Below are positions 16,878-63,520 of a stretch of 64,000 bases of DNA, piece by piece; the stretch's first letter is position 1, and each line of letters starts with the position of its first letter. The notes beneath the pieces are model-generated. The model was not told the DNA's origin. It saw only the letters and a list, made by a program, of their open reading frames with translations, and did no database searches. This DNA comes from the human T2T-CHM13v2.0 reference genome, Homo sapiens: assembly GCF_009914755.1 (NCBI RefSeq), contig NC_060941.1. One strand, written 5' to 3'. A program made the translations under genes and the position numbers.

Positions 16878-17530
<653 letters not shown>

Positions 17531-18724: not shown

Positions 18725-21738
<3,014 letters not shown>

Positions 21739-21903: not shown

Positions 21904-22865
<962 letters not shown>

Positions 22866-24122: not shown

Positions 24123-24359
<237 letters not shown>

Positions 24360-25552
24360 TCACTTGAGCCCAGGAGATCAAGGCTGCAATGAGCTATGAC
24401 AGCACCACTGCCCTCAAGCCTGGGCGACAGAGTGAGACCCTGTCTCAAAAAACAAACAGCCAGGAGCCGTGGCTCAGGCCTGTAATCCTAGCACTTTGGG
24501 AGGCTGAAGTGGGTGGATCACTCAAGGTCAGGAGTTTGAAACCAGCCTGGCCAACATGGTGAAACCCTGTCTCTACTAAAAAAAATACAAAAAAATTAGC
24601 TGGGCGTGGCTTCCGTGGGTTCCCTATCCCATGGAGAACCCACGGGACCAAGCAGGCAACTGCTTTCGTGTATTGCTTCATTGAATCCTCACAACCACCT
24701 TGCCTTATAAAAGAGGTGTTGCTATTATCCCCGTTCCACAGAAGGGGAAACTGAGGCACAAAGCAGAAAGGTCACGTGCCTGGAATCACACACCAGAAAG
24801 TGGCACAGCTGGGATTTTAACCCATGCCTGCCATGCTAGGACCAGCATCCTAGCAGCCAGGCACCATCCCCCAGCCCAGGCTGACTGCCCGTGCCCAGCT
24901 GGACTCCAGGGCTTGGCAGTCCCCAGGATGAAAAGAGGCCCCTCCCTGGGCCCTTCAAGTCACTCTGCCTGGGGGTGACACATGCAGCCACATAGGTCTC
25001 CGTGAGTTGCGGTAAGGTCTTGGGTCTCTTTATCCCTGGCATGCGGCGGGGGCACCAAAGTGACCTCAGGGATGCGGAAGTACAGGAGCCAGATTGCCAG
25101 CTGTGTGGCTCTGGCAAGTCACCTCCCCTCCCTGAGTCTGTTTCCTCAACTATAAAAAGGGATCAGTAAATGTCTCTTACTCATGGGATTGTGGGGGATT
25201 AAATTATTTGATAAATAAATGAATCATTTAGGAAAGTTCCTGGAATATAGAAACACAAGAAGAGGCAGAGGAGGAGGGGGGACAATATTACTATTGATAA
25301 TATTATCCTGGGAAGCTTTTGCTGCCAGAAGCAGGAGGGACAATTTGCTGGGAAGGAAGACCCTAGGAACCAGTCCTTCCTGTGGACCTGGGACCCAGCA
25401 CATTGCAGGTAGTTGGAAGGGGCCTCAGACCATCTCTGGAAACTCCATTCTATAGATGATGAGACTGAGGCCTGGGAGAGGCAGCCCCTGGGTCCAGGCT
25501 GCTCAGCAGAGCAGGCAGGCTGCCTGGCCCCACCTGGCCCCCTGCCCTCCTT

Positions 25553-26185
25553 CCATCCAGTCAGTCCCCATCCACCAGTCCCAATCCACCCAGTATCCAT
25601 CTACCCAGTTCCCATCCACCCAGTCCCCATCCACCAATCCCCATCCACCCAGTCCCCATCCACAAATCCCCATCCACCCAGTCCCCATCTACCAATCCCC
25701 ATCCACCCAGTCCCCACCCACCCAGTCCCCATCTACCCAGTCCCCATCCACCCAGTCCCCATCCACCAATCCCCATCCACCCAGTCCCCATCCACCCAGT
25801 CCCCATCCACCAATCCCCATCCACCCAGTCCCCACCCACCCAGTCCCCATCCACCAATCCCCATCCACCAATCCCCATCCACCCAGTCCCCATCCACCAA
25901 TCCCTACCCACCCAGTCCCCATCCACCCAGTACCCATCCACCAATCCCCACCCACCCAGTCCCCATCCACCCAGTCCCCATCCACCCAGTACCCATCCAC
26001 CAATCCCCACCCACCCAGTCCCCATCCACCCAGTACCCATCCACTCAGTCCCCATCCACCCAGTATCCATCTACCCAGTCCCCATCCACTCAGTCCCCAT
26101 CCACCCACTATCCATCCACCCACTCCCCATCCACCCAGTCCCCATCCACTCAGTACCCATTCACCCAGTCCCCATCCACCCGTTT
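25553..26185 (+). repeat. Minisatellite of mixed 15-mer CCCCATCCACCCAGT and 14-mer CCCCATCCACCAAT units
   Basis: Roughly 40 variant units read directly from the sequence. Source of the Pro/Ser/His-rich spurious ORFs. Confidence 0.95.
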
Positions 26186-27612
26186 CCCATGCACCCTCAC
26201 CCAACCCTGGTCTCCAGTCTCTCAGATTGAGGTCACCTCAGCTTCTCTGCACTGCAGTGGCCAGTGCAGGCAGTGCCCCCAGCCCCCCAGCTTGACCTCT
26301 GACCTTCCAGGACTCCAGGTTCCCACTCCAGCAGGTTAACAGTGCCAGTAATTCTGCTATCATTGCGCCTCCATGGGGTGCGGGGAGCAGGCTGTGTGGG
26401 CCCTTGGAAGCTCCCTAGGAAAGGATGAACCCCACAGTCCAGGGTCCTCTGCACAACGCTCAGAGCAGGATGGAGGAACATTGGGGGAAGAAGGTGGGCA
26501 GGCCCCAGTGTAGGAGACACCAACATCCCCCACCCATATCCTGTTCTGAGGCCAGGAAGAGGCCTGACCTACCCCTCCTCCTCCAGTGAGCCTTTCTTGG
26601 CTGACCAGGAGGCAGCTCTGTACAAGGGCTCCAGCCCAGGGCTGTGAGCAAGGGAGACCATGGGCCAGCCCCACCCCTTCTGGGTCTCTTGTTCCCTTCA
26701 TAACTGGAGGACAGATGGCAGCAGCACTCAGGAAAGGCTCAATGCTGATGCACCCGGGAAGTGCTGTGCTGCACGGGCCCAGTGGCTGGACAGGACTGTG
26801 GGAGCCCACCCAGCCCCTTCCTCCCTGTCTTAGTGTGTTTGGTGTTGCTCTAACAGAATACCTGAGACTAGGGCATTTACTTCTTTGTTTGTTTTTTAGA
26901 CAGGGTCTTGTTCTGTCACCCAGGCTGGAGTGCAGTGGCCCCTTCAGCTCACTGCAGCCTCCACTTCTTGTGCTCAAGTGATCCTTCCACCTTAGCCTCC
27001 AGAGTAGCTGGGACTACAAGTGTATGCCACCACACCTGGCTAATTTTTTAAATTTTTGTAGAGATCGCATCTCACTATGTTGCCCAGGCTGGTCTCGAAC
27101 TTCCTGGCCTCAAGCAATCCTCTCACCTTGGCCTCCCAAAATGCTGGGATACCATGCCTGGGCATAATTAAATTTCGGCAGGAGCACCTCCTTTACGCCT
27201 CAATCTGTGCCTCACCAAGGCCAGCGCTGCACGACTCCAGGGGGCCATGCATGTGTCCTGGCCGACCATCCTCCCCTGACCAAGATGCATTCTGAAAAGA
27301 TCCGGGGGCCGGCTCTGGGCCTTCACACATGCTGTTCTCTCCACCTGGAACACACTTCGCTTTCTCAAACGCCACCTCCCATTTATTTTTCAGCATACAG
27401 TTAAAAAATAAACTCCTGGGAAACCTGCCTTTATCCAGCTGGTAAAGTTCTCCTGTAGGTTCCCACAGCACCCGCTGCCTCAGTCTCCTCCCCATCCTGT
27501 CGCCCCACCGCCCCACCGCCCCACCGCCCCACCACCCCACAACCCGCCGCTCTCTCTGTCTCCCCAGGCTCAGCCCTACTGGTGCCTCCTTGCGCCCGGA
27601 CACGTGTAGACA

Positions 27613-27626
27613 GCGCCCTCTGCTGG
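27613..27626 (-). promoter_or_regulatory. CTCF motif (points away from palindrome centre)
   Basis: Reverse complement CCAGCAGAGGGCGC matches the CTCF core CCASYAGRKGGCRS. Adjacent E-box CACGTG at 27601-27606. Confidence 0.75.
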
Positions 27627-28062
27627 CGACTCTCAGCTAGCCGCTCAGCCTCGCCCGCCTGGGTCCCAGCTCTGCCCCAGGCTCAGGTCCGGGGCCCTGG
27701 AGGTCCAAATGAGGCCAGAATCCCGGGAAGAGTCACCCGGAGAGGAGCCTCGGTCTCGGAGCCACAGACCCTGCTCAAATCCCTCTCCTGCCTTCTAATT
27801 TTCATGTGGCCTCGAGCAAATCATCTTCCTTCCTTGAGATTCAGTTTCCCCTTCCGCAAAATGTATCCTCCACAACTCTTCCCTGAGTACTTACCGTGTG
27901 CTAGATACTGAGTTGGGCACCGGCGATACCGCAGGGACAACGATGAGCAAAGTCACTGCCTCAGGAAGCTGACATAGAGGGGACGGGCAATAAACAATAA
28001 ACACAACGCGGAATGTCAGTTGTCTATCTAGCACAGGGTGAGTGCTTAAAGAAGTGAAGCCG

Positions 28063-30667
<2,605 letters not shown>

Positions 30668-30845
30668 TCAAGGGGTGAAAGCCAAGAAGGAGCAGGTCAC
30701 TGCTGCAGGCAGCAGAGGCTCAGTGCTCTTGGGCGAGCACAGCTCGGAAGTGTCCCAACAAGGGCTGGAGAGGGTGGCACTTGTCCTCACTGTTCTTTTG
30801 CCCTTCGCCCGGGCTGAGCATTCTCTTGAAGCCAGAGAAAGTCCG

Positions 30846-33359
<2,514 letters not shown>

Positions 33360-33429
33360 TTATTAGGTAGTTATAGTTGAGAGAGGGTGTGGTGAGAACA
33401 CGAGAGTGGCCTCAGCCCAGTCCCACCAG

Positions 33430-33800
33430 AGTCTGCGGAGCCGCTGTCTGTCCCTGCTCCTGGCCGGTCTGCGGCAATCCCGTCATTTCTGCCTCGGTCT
33501 CTGCGTCTATGGGTACCGGTGCGTGGGTGGGTCAGTCTCTCTCTTGCGTTCTGTGTCTGTGTGGCCCGGACGCTGAGGGGTGTGGAGTGGCCCTGCCACA
33601 GGCCGTCCTTAGCACAGCCCCCGGGGGACCCCTCATTCACTTCCGGGACCGGAAGGCGACCTGTAGTTCCAGAAGCCGCCGCAAGAGGGCAGAGGCGGCC
33701 ATAGGATGGGGCGCGGCCCGCTGGGGGCTGCCTTGAGATGCGGCTAAGAAACCCGGCAGCCCTGGGAGGAACCACACTCCCAGCGCCCCACATGTGGGTT
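33430..33800. promoter_or_regulatory. Small CpG-rich promoter-like element (two ETS/GABPA sites, ACTACA motif, YY1-like site)
   Basis: CACTTCCGG 33638-33646, CCGGAAG 33649-33655, TGTAGTTCC 33662-33670 and GCGGCCAT 33695-33702 in locally CpG-rich unique sequence. Confidence 0.65.
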
Positions 33801-34294
33801 CGAACCTGGGCTCCTCCATTCCTAGGTTAAGGCTCTTAATCCTGCCACCAGTAAAATGGGTTACTGTAAGCTTTAAATAATGTGAATATAAGGTACCTAG
33901 TTTGTGAACCTGTTTTTCCCGTTTGCTTGGGGAACTGTGGACCTCCCACAGGGGCTGGGACCTTTTAATAAGTCATACAATTTAAGGAATTTTTATTTCC
34001 CTAGTGTCTGGTACTGAAAGCAGTGAGCAAGGGAATGACATGATTAGAAAATGAAATAGAAGGAAAAGGAGGAGGGGGAGTGGAAGAGGAGGGGGAAGAG
34101 GAAAAAGAATATGATAAAATGCACTTAAAAAAAAATCCAGGGGCCAGACATGGTGGCTCACACCTGTAATTCCAGCACTTCGGGATGCTGAAGTGGAAGG
34201 GATTACTTGAAGCCAGGAGATCAAGACCAGCCTGGGCAACACAATGAAATCCTGTCTCTACAATAAATAAATAAGTAAATAAATAAATAAGTCA

Positions 34295-34477
<183 letters not shown>

Positions 34478-34766
34478 CTACCCCTCATCAATAACCACAT
34501 TGGGTTTTTGGGTTTTCATACGTGAATTTGTGGTCTTTTTCTCACAACAAACTCATACATCCAAATATAAATTTATGAATATTTGCTCACAAACTCAAAG
34601 GTGCAAGAAATGTCACACTACTTCATTAAATTAAAAAAAAATTTTAAGTACTTGTTTTATAAACATGCTCAACAGAAAAAATCCAAGCCACTTAGAAAGT
34701 ATACAGAAAAAAAGCAATAAATCTCCCCCATCTGTGGGGTTTTATATTTCATGAACATCATCATAG

Positions 34767-35141
<375 letters not shown>

Positions 35142-35544
35142 TAAGACTGGGATCATAACCCATGCTATTCTGTTTGTGTGTGAACAGCCAGTGACTTGTC
35201 ATTATGTACGTATGCCTGTGTGTTTTAAGTGTTTTAAAAAATTAATTAGTAGAGGGCAGGCACAGTGGCTCATGCCTGTAATCCCAGCACTTTGGGAGGC
35301 CGAGGTGGACAGATCACCTGAAATCAGGAGTTCAAGACTAACCTGGCCAACACGGTGAAACCCCATCTCTACTAAAAATACAAAAATTAGCCAGGCATGG
35401 TGATGCATGTCTGTAATCCCAGCTACTTGGGAGGCTGAGGCAGGAGAATCTCTTGATTCAGTGAGACAAGATCGCACCACTGCACTCCAGCTGGGACACA
35501 GAGCAAGACTCCGTCTTTAAAAAAAAAAAAAAAAGAATTAATTA

Positions 35545-37272
<1,728 letters not shown>

Positions 37273-37594
37273 TCAGGAGGCCGAGGCACGTGACTCACTT
37301 GAACTCAGGAGGCAGAGGTTGCAGTGAGCCCAGATCGTGCCACTGCACTCCAGCCTGGGTGATGAAGTGAAACTCTGTCAAAACAGAAATTATTCTCTCG
37401 CAGTTATGAAGTCTCAAAGGGGGATCCTTCCTTGGCTCCTCCGGCGTCTGGAGGCTACTGGCCATCCTGGTGTTACTCAAACACCAGGGGTTCCATCTAG
37501 GGCCTGCCACTCACCTCACAGAAAGCCAATCAGTGAGACAACGATTCTTGCCAAGGAAGAAGGCTTTAATCAGGTGCTGCAGCTGAGGGGATGG

Positions 37595-39390
<1,796 letters not shown>

Positions 39391-39409
39391 TCCCCCCTAA
39401 AAAAAAAAT

Positions 39410-39735
39410 TGTTTTTAAGAGTCAAGATCTCACTCTGTCTCCCAGGCTGGGGTGCAGTGGGGTAACTGATCAGAGCTCACTGCAGCTTTGAACTCAGCCA
39501 GCTTCCCTGACTCAAACGATCATCCCGCTTCAGCCTCCCGAGTAGCTGGGACTACAGACGGTGCCATCACGCCCAGCTCATTGTTGATTCCCGCCCCCTT
39601 GGTAGAGACGGGATTCCGCTATATTGCCTGGGCTGGTGTCGAACTCATAGAACAAAGGATCCTCCCTCCTGGGCCTGGGCGTGGGCTCGCAAAACGCTGG
39701 GATTCCCGGATTACAGGCGGGCGCACCACACCAGG
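39410..39735 (-). mobile_element. Strongly remodelled antisense Alu abutting the U3 DSE (mirror 42507-42832)
   Basis: Alu skeleton recognisable but with many atypical substitutions and insertions, and CpG-rich. Confidence 0.75.
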
Positions 39736-39742
39736 AGCAAAC

Positions 39743-39798
39743 ACTTCCGGTTTTAAAAATTCAGTTTGTGATTGGCTGTCATTCAGTATTATGCTAAT
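39743..39798 (+). promoter_or_regulatory. Distal sequence element of left U3 (ETS ACTTCCGG, inverted CCAAT, octamer-like ATGCTAAT)
   Basis: ACTTCCGG 39743-39750, ATTGG 39771-39775 and ATGCTAAT 39791-39798 (about -226), the usual DSE position of snRNA-type promoters. Confidence 0.8.
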
Positions 39799-39954
39799 TA
39801 AGCATGCCCGGTTTTAAACCTCTTAAAACAACTTTTAAAATTACCTTTCCACCTAAAACGTTAAAATTTGTCAAGTGATAATATTCGACAAGCTGTTATT
39901 GCCAAACTATTTTCCTATTTGTTTCCTAATGGCATCGGAACTAGCGAAAGTTTC

Positions 39955-39971
39955 TCGCCATCAGTTAAAAG
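39955..39971 (+). promoter_or_regulatory. Proximal sequence element (PSE, SNAPc site) of left U3
   Basis: TCGCCATCAGTTAAAAG at -62 to -46 resembles the PSE consensus. No TATA box, so Pol II snRNA-type. Confidence 0.85.
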
Positions 39972-40016
39972 TTTGCGGCAGATGTAGACCTAGCAGAGGT
40001 GTGCGAGGAGGCCGTT

Positions 40017-40233
40017 AAGACTATACTTTCAGGGATCATTTCTATAGTGTGTTACTAGAGAAGTTTCTCTGAACGTGTAGAGCACCGAAAACCACGAGAA
40101 AGAGAGGTAGCGTTTTCTCCTGAGCGTGAAGCCGGCTTTCTGGCGTTGTTTGGCTGCAACTGCCGTCAGCCATTGATGATCGTTCTTCTCTCCGTATTGG
40201 GGAGTGAGAGGGAGAGAACGCGGTCTGAGTGGT
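40017..40233 (+). ncRNA. SNORD3: U3 small nucleolar RNA gene (box C/D), 217 nt, variant copy (box C' G83A, C133U)
   Basis: Starts AAGACTATACTTTCAGGGATCATTTCTATAG (boxes A'/A) and ends GGTCTGAGTGGT. Box B GAGCGTGAAG 40122-40131, box C TGATGA 40174-40179, box D CTGA 40225-40228. Box C' reads GAGAAAGA (40096-40103) instead of GAGGAAGA. Specific paralogue not determinable. Confidence 0.97.
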
Positions 40234-40247
40234 TTTTCCTTCTTGAT

Positions 40248-40261
40248 GGCTCAATGACAGA
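40248..40261 (+). terminator. Putative 3' box (Integrator 3'-end formation signal) of left U3
   Basis: GGCTCAATGACAGA about 15 nt downstream of the mature 3' end; degenerate match to the 3' box consensus ending in ...AGA. Confidence 0.5.
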
Positions 40262-40504
40262 GACTAGCTCGTAAACTCCGGGGCGTTTCTGGGCTGTTCG
40301 CTCCTGCTTGGCAATGTAGCGAGAAAGGTTTTCGCCTCCTGTTTCAGCGGTGACGGCTCTTGGGTTTTCTCGGGGTGGCTTTTTAATTTTAGTCTTGGCG
40401 CGAGGCGGGGGATGCTGTGTGGCACCTCCTATTGTCTCTTTTTGCGTTTTCTCCCATTCTCGCTCCCTCTTTTGTCGCCGTTTCCCGCCCGCCACTCCCA
40501 CCCC

Positions 40505-40946
40505 CAGACGGGGTCTCCGGGTCTCTTGTTCTGTCTGCCGCCCCGGCTGGAGTGCAGTGGCGCGATCTCGGCTCCTAGCAACATCTGCCTCCCGGGCTCA
40601 AGCGAGTCTCCCGCCTAAGCCCTCCCGAGTAGCCGGGGCTTAAAGGCGCACACGCCACTCCAGGCTTTTTTTTTTTTTTTTTTTTTTTTTTTTGGCAGAA
40701 ACGGGGTGTCAGCATGTTAGCCAGGCTGGTCTCCAACGCGTGATCTCAGGTGATCCGCCGGCCTCGGCCTCCCGAAGTTCTGGGATTACAGGCGTGAGCC
40801 ACTGCACCCGGCCCTTCTATTTTTTTAAATAGCGACGGGGTTTCACCATGTTGGCCAGGCTGCTCCTGAACACCTGAGTTCAGGTGATCCGCCCGCCTCG
40901 GCCTCCCGAAGTTCTGCGATTACAGGCGTGCCACCCGCACCCGGCC
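40505..40946 (-). mobile_element. CpG-rich antisense Alu plus extra left monomer downstream of U3 (mirror ~41318-41745)
   Basis: Alu consensus with retained CpGs. The palindrome inner boundary lies in the last monomer. Confidence 0.85.
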
Positions 40947-41338
40947 CTAAAAGTACTTTTTATAGAGATGGGGTCTCACTCTGTTGCCCAGACTGGTCTC
41001 AAACTGCTTATCTCAAGTGACTGACTGTCTGCCTCAGCTGCCCAAGTAGCAGGGATTACAGACACAAGCCACAGCCGCTGGCTCTATTCAGGAACATCTT
41101 AGTTCCAAGTTTTGGCAATTATGGATAAAGCTGCTATAAACAGGTGTGCAGGTTTTTGTGTGGACATTTTCAACTCATTTGGGTAGACACCAAGAGGCAC
41201 GAGTTCTGATCATACCGAAAGTGTTTAGTTTCAGAAGAAGCTGCTTTTCTTGGGCTCCATAACAAAATACACAGACTTTGTGGCTTAAATAACACAAATT
41301 TATTTCTTACAGTTCTCAGTCGGGCGCGGTGGCTCACT
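40927..41338. other. Palindrome spacer (~410 bp): FLAM/Alu, old L1 fragment and MLT1-like start; paralogous to 36785-37019
   Basis: No mirror partner at the centre. Shares the junction ...GGAACATCTTAGTTCCAAGTTTTGGCAATTATGG... with 36910-36945. Confidence 0.9.
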
Positions 41339-41986
41339 CCTGTAATCCCAGAACTTCGGGAGGCCGAGGCGGGCGGATCACCTGAACTCAGGTGTTCAGG
41401 AGCAGCCTGGCCAACATGGTGAAACCCCGTCGCTATTTAAAAAAATAGAAGGGCCGGGTGCAGTGGCTCACGCCTGTAATCCCAGAACTTCGGGAGGCCG
41501 AGGCGGGCGGATCACCTGAGATCACGCGTTGGAGACCAGCCTGGCTAACATGCTGACACCCCGTTTCTGCCAAAAAAAAAAAGCCTGGAGTGGCGTGTGC
41601 GCCTTTAAGCCCCGGCTACTCGGGAGGGCTTAGGCGGGAGACTCGCTTGAGCCCGGGAGGCAGATGTTGCTAGGAGCCGAGATCGCGCCACTGCAATCCA
41701 GCCGGGGCCGGCAGACAGAACAAGAGACCCGGAGACCCCGTCTGGGGGTGGGAGTGGCGGGCGGGAAACGGCGACAAAAGAGGGAGCGAGAATGGGAGAA
41801 AACGCAAAAAGAGACAATAGGAGGTGCCACACAGCATCCCCCGCCTCGCGCCAAGACTAAAATTAAAAAGCCACCCCGAGAAAACCCAAGAGCCGTCACC
41901 GCTGAAACAGGAGGCGAAAACCTTTCTCGCGACATGCCAAGCAGGAGCGAACAGCCCAGAAACGCCCCGGAGTTTACGAGCTAGTC

Positions 41987-42000
41987 TCTGTCATTGAGCC
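41987..42000 (-). terminator. Putative 3' box of right U3
   Basis: TCTGTCATTGAGCC, mirror of 40248-40261. Confidence 0.5.
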
Positions 42001-42014
42001 ATCAAGAAGGAAAA

Positions 42015-42225
42015 ACCACTCAGACCGCGTTCTCTCCCTCCCCAATACGGAGAGAAGAACGATCATCAATGGCTGACGGCAGTTGCAGCCAAGCAACGCC
42101 AGAAAGCCGGCTTCACGCTCAGGAGAAAACGCTACCTCTCTTCCTCGTGGCTTTCGGTGCTCTACACGTTCAGAGAAACTTCTCTAGTAACACACTATAG
42201 AAATGATCCCTGAAAGTATAGTCTT
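42015..42225 (-). ncRNA. SNORD3: U3 small nucleolar RNA gene, 211 nt, variant copy (A75G; 6-nt deletion at ~nt 189-194)
   Basis: Reverse complement of U3 with intact box C' GAGGAAGA and boxes B, C, D. It reads TTGGGGAG^GGAGAGAAC where the left copy has TTGGGGAGTGAGAGGGAGAGAAC. Confidence 0.96.
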
Positions 42226-42270
42226 AACGGCCTCCTCGCACACCTCTGCTAGGTCTACATCTGCCGCAAA

Positions 42271-42287
42271 CTTTTAACTGATGGCGA
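42271..42287 (-). promoter_or_regulatory. PSE of right U3
   Basis: CTTTTAACTGATGGCGA, exact reverse complement of the left PSE. Confidence 0.85.
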
Positions 42288-42443
42288 GAAACTTTCGCTA
42301 GTTCCGATGCCATTAGGAAACAAATAGGAAAATAGTTTGGCAATAACAGCTTGTCGAATATTATCACTTGACAAATTTTAACGTTTTAGGTGGAAAGGTA
42401 ATTTTAAAAGTTGTTTTAAGAGGTTTAAAACCGGGCATGCTTA

Positions 42444-42499
42444 ATTAGCATAATACTGAATGACAGCCAATCACAAACTGAATTTTTAAAACCGGAAGT
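42444..42499 (-). promoter_or_regulatory. DSE of right U3 (octamer-like, CCAAT, ETS)
   Basis: ATTAGCAT 42444-42451, CCAAT 42467-42471, CCGGAAGT 42492-42499. Confidence 0.8.
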
Positions 42500-43336
42500 G
42501 TTTGCTCCTGGTGTGGTGCGCCCGCCTGTAATCCGGGAATCCCAGCGTTTTGCGAGCCCACGCCCAGGCCCAGGAGGGAGGATCCTTTGTTCTATGAGTT
42601 CGACACCAGCCCAGGCAATATAGCGGAATCCCGTCTCTACCAAGGGGGCGGGAATCAACAATGAGCTGGGCGTGATGGCACCGTCTGTAGTCCCAGCTAC
42701 TCGGGAGGCTGAAGCGGGATGATCGTTTGAGTCAGGGAAGCTGGCTGAGTTCAAAGCTGCAGTGAGCTCTGATCAGTTACCCCACTGCACCCCAGCCTGG
42801 GAGACAGAGTGAGATCTTGACTCTTAAAAACAATTTTTTTTTTAGGGGGGATGGTATTAAATAGATACAAAATTTACCATTTTAACCATTTTTCACATAT
42901 ACAATTCAGTGGCATTAAGTACATTCGTGTAGCCATTGGCATGTAACCATCACCATTATTTATCTCCAGAACTTTTTCGACATCCCAAACTGAAACTCTA
43001 CCCGTAAAACAAACTTCCCTTTCCTCCCTCCGCCCAGACCCCTTTAACCACTATTCTACTTTCCGTCTCTATGAATTTGATTCTTGTAGGTATCTCTATA
43101 AGTGGAAACATGCAATATTGTCCTTTTGTATCTGGCTTATTTCACTTAGAATGACGTTTTCAAGGTTCATTCACGTTGTAACATGTTGCAGAATTTCACT
43201 CCTTTTTCAGGCTGGAGTGCAATGATGCATGATGTGACAGCTCACTGCAGCCTTGACCCCCAGGGCTCGGGTGATCCTCCCACGTCAGCCTCCTGAGTAG
43301 CTGGGATCGTAGGCACATGCCATCACGCTCCGCTAA

Positions 43337-43477
<141 letters not shown>

Positions 43478-43588
43478 TAATTACATTTTTGAATTGTTCC
43501 TTGCCAGTGCATAAAAACACAACTGGACCGGGCACGGTGGCTCACGCCTGTCATCCTAGCACTTTGGGAGGCCGAGGCGGGTGGATCA

Positions 43589-43877
<289 letters not shown>

Positions 43878-44096
43878 TTATTAGCTCTGGTAATTATTGT
43901 GCGTGTATTCTTTGGGATTTTCCCTATTTAAAGCGATGGTTTTATTTCTTATTTCTCAATTTGGTGCCTTTTCTTACCTAAAGGCTCTGGCTACAACTTC
44001 TAGCAAAATGTTGACTAGGCCAGGCGCGGTGGCTCACATCTGTAATTCCAGCATTTTGGGAGGCCGAGGCAGGCAGATAACAAGGTCAGGAGCTCA

Positions 44097-44405
<309 letters not shown>

Positions 44406-44969
44406 TCACCACTAAGTATGATGGTAACTGTGGTTTTTTCACAAATACCTTTTATAATGTTGAGGCAGATCCCCTCGTTTCATAGTTTTCTCTATGTTTT
44501 AATGATGAAATGTTAGAATTTCTTAGATGCTTTTTCTGTGTCAGCTGGAATGACTGTTTTTTTCCCTTTGTTCTACTAATGCGGTACATTACGTTAACGG
44601 ATTTTCTTATGTTGAACCACCCCCTGCATTCCTGGGATGAAGCCCTCCCATCCCCTCAGCTGCAGCACCTGATTAAAGCCTTCTTCCTTGGCAAGAATCG
44701 TTGTCTCACTGATTGGCTTTCTGTGAGGTGAGTGGCAGGCCCTAGATGGAACCCCTGGTGTTTGAGTAACACCAGGATGGCCAGTAGCCTCCAGACGCCG
44801 GAGGAGCCAAGGAAGGATCCCCCTTTGAGACTTCATAACTGCGAGAGAATAATTTCTGTTTTGACAGAGTTTCACTTCATCACCCAGGCTGGAGTGCAGT
44901 GGCACGATCTGGGCTCACTGCAACCTCTGCCTCCTGAGTTCAAGTGAGTCACGTGCCTCGGCCTCCTGA

Positions 44970-45245
<276 letters not shown>

Positions 45246-45722
45246 TGAAAACGTATGTCCGCACAAGCCTGCACACATATGTTTATAGCAGCTTTACCCA
45301 TAATTGCCAAAACTTGGAACTAAGATGTTCCTAAACAGAGCCGGGGGCGGTGGCTTGTGACTGTAATCCCTGCTACTTGGGCAGCTGAGGCAGACAGTCA
45401 CTTGAGATCAGGGGTTTAGGAGCTGCCTGGGCAACAGAGGGAGACCCCTGTCTCTAATAAAATAAAATAAAATAAAATAAAATAAAATAAAAAATATGTC
45501 TTCACTTTGAGAGGCCAAGGCAGGTGGATCTCCTGAGATCAGGAGCTCAAGACCAGCCTGGCCAACATGGCAAAACCCCATCTCTACTAAAAATACAAAA
45601 ATTACACTGGGCGCAGTGGCTCCCGCCTGCAATCCCAGCACTTTGGGAGGCTGAGGCGGGCAGATCACGAGGTCAGGAGATCGAGATCATCCCGGCTAAC
45701 ATGGTGAAACGCCGTCTCTACT

Positions 45723-45954
<232 letters not shown>

Positions 45955-45997
45955 TTAGCTGGGTGTGGTGGCACACGCCTGTAATCACAGCTACTCA

Positions 45998-46168
<171 letters not shown>

Positions 46169-47099
46169 TTAGATATTATTCAGTGCTAAAAACAAATGAG
46201 CTATCAAGCCATGAAAAAACATTCAAGAACCTTAAACGCATATTACTAAGAAAAAGAAGCCAATGTGAAAAGGCCATATACTGTACGATTCCATACACAT
46301 GACCTTCTGGAAAAGCAAAACTATGGAGACAGTAAAAGGCTCAGTGGTTAGCAGGGGTTGGGGGAGGGAGGGATGGACAGGCAGAGCACAGGGGACTTTC
46401 AGGGCCACAAAACTACTCTGTATGACATGACAATGGTGGATACGGCATTACACATTTGTCCAAACCCACAGAATGTACAACACCAGGAATGAGCTGTAAT
46501 GTGAGCTATGGACCTTATTTAATAATTCCATATGCATATTGGTACATCAGTTGTAACAGAAGTATCACGCTATAATGCAAAATGTTACTAACGGGGAAAT
46601 GAGTGTAGGGGTCTGAGAGAGAGGATGTATGGGGATTCTGTTCTTTGTGCTCAATTCTTCTGTAAACCTATAACCGCTCCTCCCAGAAAAGTCTACTAAT
46701 TAATTCTTTTTTTTTTTTTTTTAAAGACGGAGTCTTGCTCTGTGTCCCAGCTGGAGTGCAGTGGTGCGATCTTGTCTCACTGAATCAAGAGATTCTCCTG
46801 CCTCAGCCTCCCAAGTAGCTGGGATTACAGACATGCATCACCATGCCTGGCTAATTTTTGTATTTTTAGTAGAGATGGGGTTTCACCGTGTTGGCCAGGT
46901 TAGTCTTGAACTCCTGATTTCAGGTGATCTGTCCACCTCGGCCTCCCAAAGTGCTGGGATTACAGGCATGAGCCACTGTGCCTGCCCTCTACTAATTAAT
47001 TTTTTAAAACACTTAAAACACACAGGCATACGTACATAATGACAAGTCACTGGCTGTTCACACACAAACAGAATAGCATGGGTTATGATCCCAGTCTTA

Positions 47100-47474
<375 letters not shown>

Positions 47475-47763
47475 CTATGATGATGTTCATGAAATATAAA
47501 ACCCCACAGATGGGGGAGATTTATTGCTTTTTTTCTGTATACTTTCTAAGTGGCTTGGATTTTTTCTGTTGAGCATGTTTATAAAACAAGTACTTAAAAT
47601 TTTTTTTTAATTTAATGAAGTAGTGTGACATTTCTTGCACCTTTGAGTTTGTGAGCAAATATTCATAAATTTATATTTGGATGTATGAGTTTGTTGTGAG
47701 AAAAAGACCACAAATTCACGTATGAAAACCCAAAAACCCAATGTGGTTATTGATGAGGGGTAG

Positions 47764-47946
<183 letters not shown>

Positions 47947-48440
47947 TGACTTATTTATTTATTTACTTATTTATTTATTGTAGAGACAGGATTTCATTGT
48001 GTTGCCCAGGCTGGTCTTGATCTCCTGGCTTCAAGTAATCCCTTCCACTTCAGCATCCCGAAGTGCTGGAATTACAGGTGTGAGCCACCATGTCTGGCCC
48101 CTGGATTTTTTTTTAAGTGCATTTTATCATATTCTTTTTCCTCTTCCCCCTCCTCTTCCACTCCCCCTCCTCCTTTTCCTTCTATTTCATTTTCTAATCA
48201 TGTCATTCCCTTGCTCACTGCTTTCAGTACCAGACACTAGGGAAATAAAAATTCCTTAAATTGTATGACTTATTAAAAGGTCCCAGCCCCTGTGGGAGGT
48301 CCACAGTTCCCCAAGCAAACGGGAAAAACAGGTTCACAAACTAGGTACCTTATATTCACATTATTTAAAGCTTACAGTAACCCATTTTACTGGTGGCAGG
48401 ATTAAGAGCCTTAACCTAGGAATGGAGGAGCCCAGGTTCG

Positions 48441-48811
48441 AACCCACATGTGGGGCGCTGGGAGTGTGGTTCCTCCCAGGGCTGCCGGGTTTCTTAGCCG
48501 CATCTCAAGGCAGCCCCCAGCGGGCCGCGCCCCATCCTATGGCCGCCTCTGCCCTCTTGCGGCGGCTTCTGGAACTACAGGTCGCCTTCCGGTCCCGGAA
48601 GTGAATGAGGGGTCCCCCGGGGGCTGTGCTAAGGACGGCCTGTGGCAGGGCCACTCCACACCCCTCAGCGTCCGGGCCACACAGACACAGAACGCAAGAG
48701 AGAGACTGACCCACCCACGCACCGGTCCCCATAGACGCAGAGACCGAGGCAGAAATGACGGGATTGCCGCAGACCGGCCAGGAGCAGGGACAGACAGCGG
48801 CTCCGCAGACT
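48441..48811. promoter_or_regulatory. Mirror copy of promoter-like CpG element
   Basis: ATGGCCGC...GGAACTACA...CTTCCGGTCCCGGAAGTG (CCGGAAGTG 48595-48603). Confidence 0.65.
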
Positions 48812-48901
48812 CTGGTGGGACTGGGCTGAGGCCACTCTCGTGTTCTCACCACACCCTCTCTCAACTATAACTACCTAATAAAACTTAAAATTGTTCTATA
48901 A

Positions 48902-49312
<411 letters not shown>

Positions 49313-49494
49313 TAGGATAAAAACAAAACAATGTTATTAAATGGTGTTGGATGCTTCCCCACAGAGGCTGTGTAGGATGAGTGCTCTGTTCAAAAACGAG
49401 TTTTAGCAAAGTGTGAGGACAGTTTTGCAAACATGTTTCATATTCCAACTCAGTAGACACAATTTTTCACAAAGTAACATTCTTCCTTTTCTGA

Positions 49495-49894
<400 letters not shown>

Positions 49895-50714
49895 TAGCCA
49901 GGATGGTCTTGATCTCCTGACCTCGTGATCCGCCCGCCTCGGCCTCCCAAAGTGCTGGGATTACAGGCGTGAGCCACCGCACCCGGCCTTAAAAAGAAGT
50001 TTTAAAAAAACTAATTTGGATTCAGTATACTAACTTTATAGCTCACTAAGCAGTCACACCCCATAATTGGAAAAACTGTGTGCAAAATACGTAAAGCCCT
50101 AACACTGTGCAGAGATTTTACCTGGGCATAATCAGCAGACTGAAAGTGAATGAAGAAGGAAATTGCCTTCCCACTGTAGTTGATTGTCTACTGAGGCGGC
50201 CACCAAGAACTTCTCCCTGCCCTGTGCCCTCCGCCACCCCCACATCCAAAGGTGAAGCCTATTTCCCCTCCCCTTGCATCTGGCCTGGCCTTGTGGCTGT
50301 TTTCACCCCTAGAATGCACCCCCACTAGAATGCACCAGAAGCGATGTTCTGGGACTTCCAAGTTAAGACCTCAAGAGGACTAGCAGCTTCTGATTGTTAT
50401 CATTTGGGATGCTCCTTCTGGAAATGAGCCACCACGTTGTGAGGAAGCCCAAGAAGCAACACAGAAAGACCCATGCGGAGAACTGAGGCCCTGGGCTAAC
50501 AGCTCCAGCTAAGCTTCTAGCTGGCAGCCAGCAGCAACTGCCAGCCACATACTTCCTATCCATGCCTATGGCATCACATCACGAAAACACAGGATGACCG
50601 GGCGCAGTGGCTCACGCCTGTAATCCCAGCACTTTGGGAGGCCGAGGTGGGCGGATCACGAGGTCAGGAGATCGAGACCATCCTGGCTAACACGGTGAAA
50701 CCCCATCTCTACTA

Positions 50715-51394
<680 letters not shown>

Positions 51395-51572
51395 CGGACT
51401 TTCTCTGGCTTCAAGAGAATGCTCAGCCCGGGCGAAGGGCAAAAGAACAGTGAGGACAAGTGCCACCCTCTCCAGCCCTTGTTGGGACACTTCCGAGCTG
51501 TGCTCGCCCAAGAGCACTGAGCCTCTGCTGCCTGCAGCAGTGACCTGCTCCTTCTTGGCTTTCACCCCTTGA

Positions 51573-51883
<311 letters not shown>

Positions 51884-52397
51884 TGATCCATCCGCTTCGG
51901 CCTTCCAAAGTACTGGGATTACAGGCGTGAGCCACCGCGCCCGGCCTATTTGAGAACTCAAACCAAGACAGGAAGAGCCGGGTAAACGCTAAGTTTAATG
52001 ATGGCCGTTATTCCAGTTATTCACTCGCATTGCCTCTTACTGTAGAGGAAAATAAACAGGAATGTAATAATCACAGCTAACATTAATTAAGCCCCTACTG
52101 GATATGATACATGTTTCAGATGTACTAACTCACTTCTTACCAACAACCGTCTGAAATATCTTTAAGTCCATTTTCCACACAGGGAAACCAAGGCATAGAG
52201 AGCCTAAGCAACTTAACATCTCATTGCCAGCAAGCAACAGCAGCAGAATTCACACCTAGAAAGTGGGGCTTAATAAAATGTAAAATTGTTCTATAAATAG
52301 ATAAAGTGTTATTAAAAAGAAAAATAGAATGAATTTTGAAACGTCAATTAATGTACTTATTTATTTATTTATTTATTTGAGATGGAGTCTTGCTTAG

Positions 52398-52541
<144 letters not shown>

Positions 52542-53523
52542 TAGTAGAGATGGGATTTCACTGTGTTAGCCAGGATGGTCTCGATCTCCTGACCTTGTGA
52601 TCCGCCCGCCTTGGCCTCCCAAAGTGCTGGGATTATAGGCGTGAGCCACCGCACCTGGCCTATTCATTTTATTTTTAAGACAGGGTGTCACTCTGTTACC
52701 CAGGCTGGAGTGCAGTGGTACAATCATGGCTCACTTCAACCTCGAACTCCTGGGCTCAAGTGATCCTCTCACCTCAGCCTCCTGAGTAGCAGGTGGACAC
52801 CACTCAGGGCCCATGTGTTCACATATTAGGCCACAGTGCCTCTCCAACCCCCAGAATGAAATCCAAGCCCCTTGGCCTGGTCCTCAAGTCTTTCTCTGAC
52901 CTGGTCATCCCTGCCACCTGCCCTCTCTTCTCCAGCTACCTTGAATCACTTGAAGAATCTCCATGCCTCACAGCTTTCATTGCTGTTACTTCTGCCTTGA
53001 ACACCCTTCCTCCTTGTCATTCCCACTTTTCAAGTCTCACATCAGCATGCACTGCCTCCTCCAGGAAGCCTCTCAGCACTCACCCCAGAGTCCGTCAGGC
53101 TCCTCCAGGTTCCTATGGCCTCCCAGCTGTCCCCTATTTGATCACAAGTGCTGGCTCTGGAAGAGTTGATAGAGGAGCAGGCGGCTGAGTGAGAGGCACC
53201 ATGAGGAGTGGGCGGCTGAGTGAGAGGCACCGTCCTGCCCCATGGTTAGCGCAAAAATCGATAAACCAGCACCCAATGGGCACCTACTGTGTGCAAGGCA
53301 CTGTTCTCAGTGCTGGGGCTACCCATGGAAGTAGACAGACAAAAATCCCCGCACTTACAGGCCGACTTTCTCCTGGGCAGGCAGACGATAAACACAGTAA
53401 GTAGGATGGAGAGCTGGGAGGTGGCCCAAGGAGAGCACATGAGGGAGGATGCTGGGCGTTCGTGCCATTTGCATGGCTATGACAGCGTGCTGCGGGGGCA
53501 TCGATGTTCCCACCTCCCCATGA

Positions 53524-54038
<515 letters not shown>

Positions 54039-54613
54039 TGACTCATTTTTTATTTTTGGTAGAGACGGGGTTTCTCAGTGTTGGTCAGGCTGGTCTCAAA
54101 CTCCTGACCTCAGGTGATCCGCCCGCCTCGACCTCCCAAAGTGCTGGGATTACAGGCGTGAGCCACCGCGCCCGGTCCGGCTTCACTTCTTTAAGCACTC
54201 ACCCTGTGCTAGATAGACAACTGACATTCCGCGTTGTGTTTATTGTTTATTGCCCGTCCCCTCTATGTCAGCTTCCTGAGGCAGTGACTTTGCTCATCGT
54301 TGTCCCTGCGGTATCGCCGGTGCCCAACTCAGTATCTAGCACACGGTAAGTACTCAGGGAAGAGTTGTGGAGGATACATTTTGCGGAAGGGGAAACTGAA
54401 TCTCAAGGAAGGAAGATGATTTGCTCGAGGCCACATGAAAATTAGAAGGCAGGAGAGGGATTTGAGCAGGGTCTGTGGCTCCGAGACCGAGGCTCCTCTC
54501 CGGGTGACTCTTCCCGGGATTCTGGCCTCATTTGGACCTCCAGGGCCCCGGACCTGAGCCTGGGGCAGAGCTGGGACCCAGGCGGGCGAGGCTGAGCGGC
54601 TAGCTGAGAGTCG

Positions 54614-54627
54614 CCAGCAGAGGGCGC
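54614..54627 (+). promoter_or_regulatory. CTCF motif (mirror, points away from centre)
   Basis: CCAGCAGAGGGCGC on the + strand. Confidence 0.75.
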
Positions 54628-56062
54628 TGTCTACACGTGTCCGGGCGCAAGGAGGCACCAGTAGGGCTGAGCCTGGGGAGACAGAGAGAGCGGCGGGTTG
54701 TGGGGTGGTGGGGCAGTGGGGCGGTGGGGCGGTGGGGCGGTGGGGCGACAGGATGGGGAGGAGACTGAGGCAGCGGGTGCTGTGGGAACCTACAGGAGAA
54801 CTTTACCAGCTGGATAAAGGCAGGTTTCCCAGGAGTTTATTTTTTAACTGTATGCTGAAAAATAAATGGGAGGTGGCGTTTGAGAAAGCGAAGTGTGTTC
54901 CAGGTGGAGAGAACAGCATGTGTGAAGGCCCAGAGCCGGCCCCCGGATCTTTTCAGAATGCATCTTGGTCAGGGGAGGATGGTCGGCCAGGACACATGCA
55001 TGGCCCCCTGGAGTCGTGCAGCGCTGGCCTTGGTGAGGCACAGATTGAGGCGTAAAGGAGGTGCTCCTGCCGAAATTTAATTATGCCCAGGCATGGTATC
55101 CCAGCATTTTGGGAGGCCAAGGTGAGAGGATTGCTTGAGGCCAGGAAGTTCGAGACCAGCCTGGGCAACATAGTGAGATGCGATCTCTACAAAAATTTAA
55201 AAAATTAGCCAGGTGTGGTGGCATACACTTGTAGTCCCAGCTACTCTGGAGGCTAAGGTGGAAGGATCACTTGAGCACAAGAAGTGGAGGCTGCAGTGAG
55301 CTGAAGGGGCCACTGCACTCCAGCCTGGGTGACAGAACAAGACCCTGTCTAAAAAACAAACAAAGAAGTAAATGCCCTAGTCTCAGGTATTCTGTTAGAG
55401 CAACACCAAACACACTAAGACAGGGAGGAAGGGGCTGGGTGGGCTCCCACAGTCCTGTCCAGCCACTGGGCCCGTGCAGCACAGCACTTCCCGGGTGCAT
55501 CAGCATTGAGCCTTTCCTGAGTGCTGCTGCCATCTGTCCTCCAGTTATGAAGGGAACAAGAGACCCAGAAGGGGTGGGGCTGGCCCATGGTCTCCCTTGC
55601 TCACAGCCCTGGGCTGGAGCCCTTGTACAGAGCTGCCTCCTGGTCAGCCAAGAAAGGCTCACTGGAGGAGGAGGGGTAGGTCAGGCCTCTTCCTGGCCTC
55701 AGAACAGGATATGGGTGGGGGATGTTGGTGTCTCCTACACTGGGGCCTGCCCACCTTCTTCCCCCAATGTTCCTCCATCCTGCTCTGAGCGTTGTGCAGA
55801 GGACCCTGGACTGTGGGGTTCATCCTTTCCTAGGGAGCTTCCAAGGGCCCACACAGCCTGCTCCCCGCACCCCATGGAGGCGCAATGATAGCAGAATTAC
55901 TGGCACTGTTAACCTGCTGGAGTGGGAACCTGGAGTCCTGGAAGGTCAGAGGTCAAGCTGGGGGGCTGGGGGCACTGCCTGCACTGGCCACTGCAGTGCA
56001 GAGAAGCTGAGGTGACCTCAATCTGAGAGACTGGAGACCAGGGTTGGGTGAGGGTGCATGGG

Positions 56063-56695
56063 AAACGGGTGGATGGGGACTGGGTGAATGGGTACTGAGT
56101 GGATGGGGACTGGGTGGATGGGGAGTGGGTGGATGGATAGTGGGTGGATGGGGACTGAGTGGATGGGGACTGGGTAGATGGATACTGGGTGGATGGGGAC
56201 TGAGTGGATGGGTACTGGGTGGATGGGGACTGGGTGGGTGGGGATTGGTGGATGGGTACTGGGTGGATGGGGACTGGGTGGATGGGGACTGGGTGGGTGG
56301 GGATTGGTGGATGGGTACTGGGTGGATGGGGACTGGGTGGGTAGGGATTGGTGGATGGGGACTGGGTGGATGGGGATTGGTGGATGGGGATTGGTGGATG
56401 GGGACTGGGTGGGTGGGGACTGGGTGGATGGGGATTGGTGGATGGGGACTGGGTGGATGGGGACTGGGTGGATGGGGATTGGTGGATGGGGACTGGGTGG
56501 ATGGGGACTGGGTAGATGGGGACTGGGTGGGTGGGGACTGGGTGGATGGGGATTGGTAGATGGGGACTGGGTGGATGGGGATTTGTGGATGGGGACTGGG
56601 TGGATGGGGATTGGTGGATGGGGACTGGGTGGATGGGAACTGGGTAGATGGATACTGGGTGGATTGGGACTGGTGGATGGGGACTGACTGGATGG
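56063..56695 (-). repeat. Mirror minisatellite (GGGTGGATGGGGACT)n
   Basis: Translated ORFs identical to the left copy. Confidence 0.95.
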
Positions 56696-57888
56696 AAGGA
56701 GGGCAGGGGGCCAGGTGGGGCCAGGCAGCCTGCCTGCTCTGCTGAGCAGCCTGGACCCAGGGGCTGCCTCTCCCAGGCCTCAGTCTCATCATCTATAGAA
56801 TGGAGTTTCCAGAGATGGTCTGAGGCCCCTTCCAACTACCTGCAATGTGCTGGGTCCCAGGTCCACAGGAAGGACTGGTTCCTAGGGTCTTCCTTCCCAG
56901 CAAATTGTCCCTCCTGCTTCTGGCAGCAAAAGCTTCCCAGGATAATATTATCAATAGTAATATTGTCCCCCCTCCTCCTCTGCCTCTTCTTGTGTTTCTA
57001 TATTCCAGGAACTTTCCTAAATGATTCATTTATTTATCAAATAATTTAATCCCCCACAATCCCATGAGTAAGAGACATTTACTGATCCCTTTTTATAGTT
57101 GAGGAAACAGACTCAGGGAGGGGAGGTGACTTGCCAGAGCCACACAGCTGGCAATCTGGCTCCTGTACTTCCGCATCCCTGAGGTCACTTTGGTGCCCCC
57201 GCCGCATGCCAGGGATAAAGAGACCCAAGACCTTACCGCAACTCACGGAGACCTATGTGGCTGCATGTGTCACCCCCAGGCAGAGTGACTTGAAGGGCCC
57301 AGGGAGGGGCCTCTTTTCATCCTGGGGACTGCCAAGCCCTGGAGTCCAGCTGGGCACGGGCAGTCAGCCTGGGCTGGGGGATGGTGCCTGGCTGCTAGGA
57401 TGCTGGTCCTAGCATGGCAGGCATGGGTTAAAATCCCAGCTGTGCCACTTTCTGGTGTGTGATTCCAGGCACGTGACCTTTCTGCTTTGTGCCTCAGTTT
57501 CCCCTTCTGTGGAACGGGGATAATAGCAACACCTCTTTTATAAGGCAAGGTGGTTGTGAGGATTCAATGAAGCAATACACGAAAGCAGTTGCCTGCTTGG
57601 TCCCGTGGGTTCTCCATGGGATAGGGAACCCACGGAAGCCACGCCCAGCTAATTTTTTTGTATTTTTTTTAGTAGAGACAGGGTTTCACCATGTTGGCCA
57701 GGCTGGTTTCAAACTCCTGACCTTGAGTGATCCACCCACTTCAGCCTCCCAAAGTGCTAGGATTACAGGCCTGAGCCACGGCTCCTGGCTGTTTGTTTTT
57801 TGAGACAGGGTCTCACTCTGTCGCCCAGGCTTGAGGGCAGTGGTGCTGTCATAGCTCATTGCAGCCTTGATCTCCTGGGCTCAAGTGA

Positions 57889-58125
<237 letters not shown>

Positions 58126-59401: not shown

Positions 59402-60086
<685 letters not shown>

Positions 60087-60137
60087 TCAGGAGATCGAGA
60101 CCATCCTGGCTAACACAGTGAAACCCCGTCTGTATTA

Positions 60138-60344
<207 letters not shown>

Positions 60345-60509: not shown

Positions 60510-63520
<3,011 letters not shown>

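What the first reader, a model, noticed from the sequence alone, without database searches (positions are those of the whole stretch)
40017..42225. Complementary lesions and a local collapse of arm identity in the inner ~900 bp
Seen: the promoters and upstream arms look identical, but from the U3 start to the spacer I count about 11 differences. These are G83A, A75G, C133U, the 6-nt deletion, an indel plus substitution at ~40313-40318, an indel plus substitution at ~40541-40552, poly(T) 28 vs 11 at 40666, and substitutions at 40760 and 40917. That is roughly 20-fold denser than the outer arms. At all four U3 sites, one copy retains the canonical state. Inference: conversion may be inefficient next to the loop, the highly transcribed unit may be hypermutable, or the inner repeat may be older than the outer arms. 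A short conversion tract or crossover could rebuild a canonical U3, making the pair a shuffling reservoir of U3 alleles.
Basis: partly seen in the sequence, partly recalled or inferred. Interest (0 to 1): 0.75.

Follow-up and report, generated by a model that had tools for sequence, protein, structure and literature searches.

The report
Mutation hot zone in U3 genes
Two facing copies of the human gene for U3, an RNA needed to build ribosomes, differ 15 to 20 times more densely than the mirror-image DNA around them, likely because this small gene and its tail mutate fast while five neighbouring copies swap patches; one change is predicted to disable a copy, but three intact copies lie nearby.

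Summary
The excess is real: 10 differences in the inner 900 bp between SNORD3A and SNORD3C, against 12 in 21.8 kb of outer arm. The eleventh (40917) is the spacer junction. The loop is not the main cause. The sister palindrome B1/B2 has an identical 432-bp spacer and no inner difference except poly(T) length, while B1 versus D, not a palindromic pair, shows the same peak (9-fold). Among the five U3 copies, 13 events fall in +1..+900 against 3 in 1.9 kb of equally shared upstream sequence (p 7e-5). The AluS behind U3 carries about four times the local transversion load. Three A/C differences, and C's poly(T) length, are C=D alleles, and four-gamete conflicts among the paralogues show interlocus exchange. 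'Complementary lesions' is a truism for private mutations; a single A/C crossover cannot rebuild canonical U3, and B1, B2 and D are already canonical. Only G83A looks severe: it removes the G of the first sheared G.A pair of the C'/D kink-turn. Best reading: an snRNA-type mutation hot zone plus mosaic ancestry in a known cluster. One haplotype only; moderate-low interest.

The parts
40017..40233 (+). SNORD3A, U3 snoRNA gene (217 nt) with private G83A (40099) and C133U (40149)
   Evidence: Rfam RF00012 192.3 bits; five-copy alignment
42015..42225 (-). SNORD3C, U3 snoRNA gene (211 nt) with private A75G (42151) and a 6-nt deletion of +186..+191
   Evidence: Rfam RF00012 181.5 bits
40097..40103 (+). 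Box C' of copy A; position 40099 is the G of the first sheared G.A pair in canonical U3 and reads A here
   Evidence: Alignment to the Rfam consensus; terminal stem and 3-nt bulge from folding; kink-turn anatomy from PMC5499572 passages
39791..39798 (+). Octamer-like motif of the distal promoter element of A (mirror at 42444-42451 for C); motif identity recalled
   Evidence: Sequence; identical in all five copies
39955..39972 (+). Proximal-element-like motif at -62..-45 of A (mirror at 42270-42287 for C); motif identity recalled
   Evidence: Sequence; identical in all five copies
40234..40916 (+). 3' flank of A to the true arm end; matches B1/B2 at +302, +523, +744; poly(T) of 28 at 40666-40693
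41349..42014 (-). 3' flank of C to the true arm end; matches D at +302 (41931), +523 (41709), +744 (41505) and poly(T) of 11; private 1-nt deletion near +298 and G536T
40525..40810 (-). Full-length AluS-like element 3' of A (mirror about 41455-41740 for C), unusually diverged and transversion-rich with CpGs kept; ends approximate
40917..41348 (.). 432-bp spacer bounded by two outward-facing Alu heads; identical to the B1/B2 spacer; A-side 250 bp is a 92% copy of sequence 3.0-3.3 kb upstream of B1 and D
1..40916 (+). Left arm of the 48-kb palindrome (begins 7.3 kb before the window)
41349..64000 (-). Right arm of the 48-kb palindrome (runs 25.5 kb past the window)

Best explanation
The inner 900 bp differ more than the outer arms, likely because the U3 gene and its 3' flank mutate several times faster than their surroundings, and three of the ten differences are alleles that copy C shares with copy D, which likely reflects patch exchange among five neighbouring copies. 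Shown: the counts; the same peak in B1 vs D; no peak in B1 vs B2; four-gamete conflicts among the paralogues; an old transversion excess in the Alu behind U3. Inferred: the snRNA-type Pol II promoter and dense transcription with read-through into the GC-rich flank raise the mutation rate, as reported for RNU genes; new alleles stay private to one copy until interlocus conversion or crossover spreads or erases them; with five copies a damaged allele such as G83A is tolerated. Paralogue divergence settles near the ratio of mutation to conversion, so a higher mutation rate gives a local dip in identity without a failure of conversion.
For: Five-copy core as internal control: 13 events in +1..+900 vs 3 in -2605..-701 (9-fold, p 7e-5); private events alone 9 vs 4 in -2605..-1 (p 0.001). 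B1 vs D, direct repeats 78 kb apart: 7 in 900 bp vs 31 in 36.3 kb (9-fold, p 3e-5). B1 vs B2, same spacer: 0 non-homopolymer differences. AluS 3' of U3: non-CpG divergence 13.6-14.4% vs 5.9 +/- 2.4% in 62 distant S/Y-like Alus (1 of 62 higher); transversions 7.8-9.6% vs 2.1%, above all 62; GC-neutral changes 9 and 6 vs 2.3 expected (p 0.0007 and 0.03). 7 of 21 marker pairs fail the four-gamete test among the five copies. Print: RNU genes show 7-fold SNV density and 32-fold de novo rate (10.1101/2022.08.20.504670, passages); U8 and U13, the other independently transcribed snoRNAs (PMC7430653, passage), supply 6 of 15 de novo snoRNA variant rows in PMC12165836 Supplementary Table 3, where no SNORD3 gene appears.
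Against: One haplotype and small counts. A vs B2 shows only 3 inner differences (3.5-fold, p 0.06). All four U3-internal variants are in A and C, none in B1, B2 or D, which a uniform hot zone does not predict. A relative-rate test on the Alu upstream of the promoter, using a chr11 copy, gave no excess on the U3 lineage (4 vs 5 non-CpG changes), so the zone is not shown upstream. Part of the Alu excess is W>S (11-12 vs 3.2 expected), which GC-biased conversion could also give. A patch of 8 differences in 900 bp occurs 30 kb away with no U3 gene, so old patches arise in these arms by other means. The transversion share of recent variants (5 of 10 vs 12 of 53) is not significant (p 0.12). The U8/U13 rows come from a rare-disease cohort and a table limited to R-loop regions. 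The cited paper attributes the effect to Pol III, whereas U3 is a Pol II gene.
Confidence: 0.65

Rival explanations
1. Edge effect with old arm-specific alleles: conversion tracts need homology on both sides, so the last kilobase before the loop is homogenised less often and keeps older differences; the mutation rate is ordinary.
For: +302, +523, +744 and the short poly(T) travel with the C/D junction type, compatible with old arm-type alleles. D, whose homology partners also end at the spacer, has 3 private changes in +218..+900 and 2 in the spacer. The spacer piece is 7.7% from its upstream paralogue, so the centre may be old.
Against: B1/B2 are identical up to the same loop and share the non-consensus +744 allele. 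+745..+900, nearest the loop, has 0 variants in five copies (2.7 expected, p 0.07). Density is highest inside U3 (4 in 217 bp), 700-900 bp from the loop. Less conversion does not explain the Alu's excess divergence from its family.
Confidence: 0.2
2. The private U3 variants are peculiar to this cell line or assembly (somatic mutation in culture, or consensus error in a near-perfect palindrome) and do not segregate in people.
For: Only one genome could be examined; all four U3 variants are singletons among the five copies. The locus is a 99.7% palindrome with three more near-identical copies.
Against: Three differences are shared between C and D, and two alleles between B1 and B2, in patterns that random error would not give. 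The Alu excess is far older than any cell line.
Confidence: 0.08
3. A and C form a maintained pair of complementary defective alleles, a reservoir from which canonical or new U3 RNAs are rebuilt by recombination.
For: No U3 site is non-canonical in both copies; the copies face each other 2.2 kb apart; exchange among paralogues is indicated.
Against: Complementarity follows from independent mutation. A single crossover cannot give a canonical gene (variant order C, A, A, C). B1, B2 and D are canonical. Three of the four changes look mild: A75G and C133U turn pairs into G.U wobbles, and the deletion shortens one hairpin while the terminal stem and main helix persist.
Confidence: 0.05

Closest known systems
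Human U3 gene cluster at 17p11.2 (Gao, Frey and Matera 1997; only the title was seen, in the reference list of PMC4802181)
   Same: The same locus: U3 genes clustered in a complex inverted repeat.
   Different: The complete assembly resolves five copies, three spacers and the block order; per-site differences and their sharing pattern could not be compared with the 1997 text, which is not held.
Hypermutable RNU and tRNA genes (10.1101/2022.08.20.504670) and R-loop-region de novo excess in snRNA/snoRNA genes (PMC12165836)
   Same: A short, highly transcribed, independently promoted RNA gene with a sharp local excess of variants.
   Different: 'SNORD' does not occur in the main text of the first and no SNORD3 gene occurs in the supplements of the second, which drops poorly covered regions. 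Here the excess runs about 530 bp past the mature RNA and is read from paralogue differences, not de novo counts.
Y-chromosome palindrome P6 with arm-to-arm gene conversion (PMC3723533, PMC8600007; passages)
   Same: Long inverted arms above 99.7% identity around a spacer, with signs of conversion.
   Different: Autosomal, 48-kb arms, a 432-bp spacer, and not a singleton: the U3 core has five copies and the outer block three, so donors outside the palindrome matter. The passages shown reported no loss of conversion near the spacer (12 of 23 and 12 of 28 places shown).
Interlocus gene conversion in segmental duplications (PMC10172114; passages)
   Same: Mosaic ancestry among high-identity paralogues and raised SNV density.
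   Different: The genome-wide elevation is 60%; here it is 9- to 15-fold over 0.9 kb. '17p11.2' does not occur in the main text and the readable supplements hold no SNORD3A/3C/3D, GRAP or GRAPL (one file unreadable).

Membership tests
U3 snoRNA (RF00012) | Covariance-model score above the gathering threshold over the full model | tested here: met
   192.3 and 181.5 bits vs 34, model 1-219
U3 snoRNA (RF00012) | 5' domain that pairs with pre-rRNA unchanged | tested here: met
   No variant in +1..+74 among the five copies
U3 snoRNA (RF00012) | C'/D kink-turn with two sheared G.A pairs, copy A | tested here: not met
   G83A replaces the G of the first pair; loss of SNU13 binding is predicted, not measured
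U3 snoRNA (RF00012) | C'/D and B/C motifs, copy C | tested here: met
   Boxes unchanged; A75G gives a G.U in the terminal stem; the deletion shortens the hairpin after box C
U3 snoRNA (RF00012) | Copy-specific expression and snoRNP assembly | not testable with these tools
   Promoters of A and C are identical; no RNA data
Palindrome kept by arm-to-arm gene conversion | Long inverted arms above 99% identity around a spacer | tested here: met
   48-kb arms at 99.6-99.9%, 432-bp spacer
Palindrome kept by arm-to-arm gene conversion | Signs of exchange between arms | tested here: inconclusive
   Indicated for B1/B2 (shared -184, +298; four-gamete conflicts). For A/C no inner allele is shared by A and C alone, and 20-40 kb out C is closer to the B2 block than to A
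Palindrome kept by arm-to-arm gene conversion | Variants switching state across haplotypes or species | not testable with these tools
   No other human or ape genome is held
Hypermutable snRNA-type genes | Variant density several-fold above flanks | tested here: met
   4 events in 217 bp and 9 in the next 683 bp vs 3 in 1905 bp; small counts
Hypermutable snRNA-type genes | Raised de novo rate in trios, limited to active copies | not testable with these tools
   SNORD3 genes are absent from the de novo table read
Hypermutable snRNA-type genes | Pol III transcription, as worded in the Roulette paper | tested here: not met
   U3 is transcribed by Pol II according to a passage of PMC7430653; it works like the class but fails this literal criterion

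The most novel reading that the evidence does not exclude
The U3 cluster is a hypermutable, essential RNA gene family hidden from short reads, in which dead alleles such as G83A arise often, segregate in people and are purged or spread by conversion among five copies, so that functional U3 dosage varies between haplotypes; the reference T2T SNORD3A would itself be a null allele, and low-dosage genotypes could modify or cause ribosome disorders.
Probability: 0.3. Interest if true: 0.62.

Novelty: new member of a known kind. Interest (0 to 1): 0.33.

Why it matters
U3 is essential for 18S rRNA processing, and the related snRNA genes and U8 have proved to be frequent disease genes partly because they mutate fast. 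The U3 genes sit in near-identical repeats that short-read studies tend to drop. If the hot zone holds in many haplotypes, it extends that class to a Pol II snoRNA and its 3' flank, gives a compact natural system for mutation-conversion balance, and warns that the T2T reference copy named SNORD3A carries a predicted kink-turn defect, which matters for read mapping and variant calling.

Tried and rejected
Loop-proximal conversion failure as the main cause: rejected by B1/B2. Import of the U3 variants from a retro-pseudogene: the best of 35 other matches listed are 83% identical or short, and of the 10 fetched none carries A75G, C133U or the deletion and 1 carries A at 83 in a different context. 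A fourth paralogue as donor of the -29.95 kb patch: only three copies found. Hypermutation upstream of the promoter: relative-rate test negative, 4 vs 5. Transversion excess among recent variants: not significant. The first Alu consensus was permuted because the seed straddled two elements and was used only to read two positions; searches replaced it. Alu sets were de-duplicated, and one search kept only full-length copies (62 S/Y-like, 9 J-like, 5 near U3), sorted by recalled diagnostic motifs, so one or two may be misclassed. In one search some bins for B1, B2 and C are shifted by indels (the single B1/B2 substitution in 218..900 is the junction base), so inner counts come. Literature: no paper held all of 'GRAPL', 'inversion', '17p11.2' or 'U3 genes', 'concerted evolution', 'gene conversion'; listings for SNORD3A/3B/3C (30 of 37 shown), U3 with 17p11.2 and SNORD3A with gnomAD showed no title on U3 paralogue variation. 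PMC13102968 has no mention of snRNA or snoRNA. Subscription papers and bioRxiv supplements were not searchable and may cover this.

Full report
Observation. A self-comparison of the window gives one inverted repeat of 22.7 kb at 99.7%, and flanking stretches extend it to 48-kb arms. Both annotated genes are full-length U3 by Rfam. The ratio is 20- to 22-fold in the window and 14.7-fold over 47 kb once homopolymer indels are dropped (p 6e-8). Position 40917 is not an arm difference: it begins the 432-bp spacer, where two different Alu heads diverge. Ten differences remain.

Setting. A search of the genome found three further U3 units nearby. The block order is G u> s <u K, G u> s E K u> s <u K E, where u is a 3.5-kb core holding U3, s the spacer, G a 34-kb block on the GRAP side, K a 36-kb block holding KYNUP and E an 8-kb block reaching the EPN2 5' end (gene names from the supplied table, GRAP itself recalled). 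The core occurs five times (B1, B2, D, A, C) and the spacer three times.

Who shares what. In the five-way alignment, B1, B2 and D carry the canonical state at all four U3 sites. A alone has G83A and C133U. C alone has A75G, the 6-nt deletion, a 1-nt deletion near +298 and G536T. C and D share +302, +523, +744 and an 11-nt poly(T), against A, B1 and B2 (poly(T) 28, 21, 19). B1 and B2 share -184 and +298. D alone has +267, +274 and +568. So the ten A/C differences are 2 private to A, 4 private to C, 3 shared by C and D, and one unstable homopolymer.

Test of the loop idea. B1 and B2 face each other across the same loop and have no difference in +1..+900 other than poly(T) length, while they differ at 6 non-homopolymer sites in the 2.6 kb upstream. 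They share a G at +744 where the local Alu consensus has the C/D state, which suggests transfer across the loop within 157 bp of it. The last 156 bp of the arm are invariant in all five copies (p 0.07 if the inner rate applied). B1 against D, which are direct repeats, shows the same inner peak as A against C (7 in 900 bp vs 31 in 36.3 kb). The peak follows the U3 unit, not the A/C loop. A weaker edge effect remains possible, because the three C/D alleles travel with one junction type.

Test of hypermutability. With copy number held at five, 13 events fall in +1..+900 and 3 in -2605..-701 (p 7e-5), or 6 in -2605..-1 (p 1e-4); private events alone give p 0.001. An independent, older record is the AluS-like element 510-790 bp behind the start. 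Its non-CpG divergence from the local consensus is 13.6-14.4% against 5.9 +/- 2.4% for 62 distant copies, its transversion load exceeds all 62, and it keeps over half its CpGs. W>S changes are raised (11-12 vs 3.2), which GC-biased conversion could cause, but GC-neutral changes are raised too (9 and 6 vs 2.3); the A and C copies are not independent of each other. Against this, the Alu upstream of the promoter shows no lineage excess relative to a chr11 copy (4 vs 5), A vs B2 is only 3.5-fold (p 0.06), and an equally dense patch of 8 differences lies 30 kb away with no outside donor. In print, RNU genes have 7-fold SNV density and a 32-fold de novo rate (10.1101/2022.08.20.504670, passages). 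U8 and U13, which like U3 are independent Pol II units (PMC7430653, passage), account for 6 of 15 de novo snoRNA variant rows in PMC12165836 Supplementary Table 3; no SNORD3 gene is listed, and the study removed poorly covered regions.

Exchange among copies. Seven of 21 marker pairs show all four gametes among the five paralogues: the flank type conflicts with both the B1/B2 and the C/D alleles, and the junction type conflicts with the B1/B2 alleles. Concordant runs of two and three sites make recurrent mutation unlikely, so conversion or crossover between copies is inferred, in line with the general picture for segmental duplications (PMC10172114, passages). The direction of exchange (C from D, or B1 from B2) cannot be fixed without outgroups. 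The spacer's A-side 250 bp is a 92% copy of sequence 3.0-3.3 kb upstream of B1 and D, which suggests that the inverted centre is far older than the 1% inner divergence and that homogenisation has reached the loop repeatedly; this dating is an inference.

The four U3 changes. They are not equal. The terminal stem starts at +75, a 3-nt bulge follows at +80..+82, and G83 is the G of the first of the two sheared G.A pairs that define the C'/D kink-turn bound by SNU13 (anatomy from PMC5499572, passages). G83A is therefore predicted to impair assembly and stability of copy A's RNA; this is untested. A75G and C133U convert Watson-Crick pairs to G.U wobbles, and the deletion shortens the hairpin after box C while the main helix and terminal stem persist. 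Copy C may well be functional. The variants lie in the order C, A, A, C, so no single crossover yields canonical U3; a conversion tract from C into A would need its left end between +75 and +83. Any covering tract from B1, B2 or D would do the same without that constraint. The 'complementarity' is what four independent mutations look like.

Verdict. A real but largely explicable feature of a known cluster: a local mutation hot zone (inferred, 0.65) overlaid on mosaic ancestry among five copies, with an edge effect as the main rival (0.2). My searches found no paper on U3 paralogue variation, but the 1997 description of the cluster was seen by title only and subscription papers were not searchable. 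The predicted null allele in the reference copy is the point most worth following. Interest 0.33.

Noticed in passing
window about 10070-10970 (U3 -29.95 kb): A second patch of 8 non-homopolymer differences in 900 bp, all private to the A arm against C and B2, over exons of LOC102724624; no fourth paralogue found, so probably an old allelic patch.
   Followed up: partly
window 40945-41195 vs L017:540-800: The A-side of the spacer is a 92% copy of sequence 3.0-3.3 kb upstream of B1 and D, and both spacer ends are outward-facing Alu heads; this suggests a multi-step, Alu-guided template switch at the origin of the palindrome.
   Followed up: partly
L009:1501-2510 (chr11) vs window 38834-39842: A 1.0-kb, 90% copy of the U3 upstream region ending 175 bp before the gene and followed by an A-rich tail in U3 sense; it looks like a retroposed Alu read-through that carried the distal promoter element but not U3.
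   Followed up: partly
L025, about 2730-10000, and L028: The left arm of the 48-kb palindrome ends in an inverted copy of the EPN2 5' CpG-rich region, joined directly to the spacer behind SNORD3D.
   Followed up: no
L017-L021 vs window 1034-44835: The B1-spacer-B2-K block is a 44-kb inverted copy of the K-A-spacer-C block, so crossovers could invert the D/GRAPL segment between them and swap which U3 copy sits at which named position. From recall, GRCh38 has D on the other strand; not checked.
   Followed up: no
window 41358-41395 and 41489-41526: The two tandem Alu left arms behind U3 share a stretch of about 38 bp with the same departures from the local Alu consensus, hinting at a local duplication or Alu-to-Alu conversion; coordinates approximate.
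   Followed up: no
L017, B2 promoter at U3 -423: B2 alone has a 15-nt C-rich insertion and a substitution at -440 in the upstream Alu.
   Followed up: no
G000:C6:69842668-69842744: A 97% copy of only the first 77 nt of U3, resembling the 3'-truncated U3 retrocopies recalled from older work.
   Followed up: no
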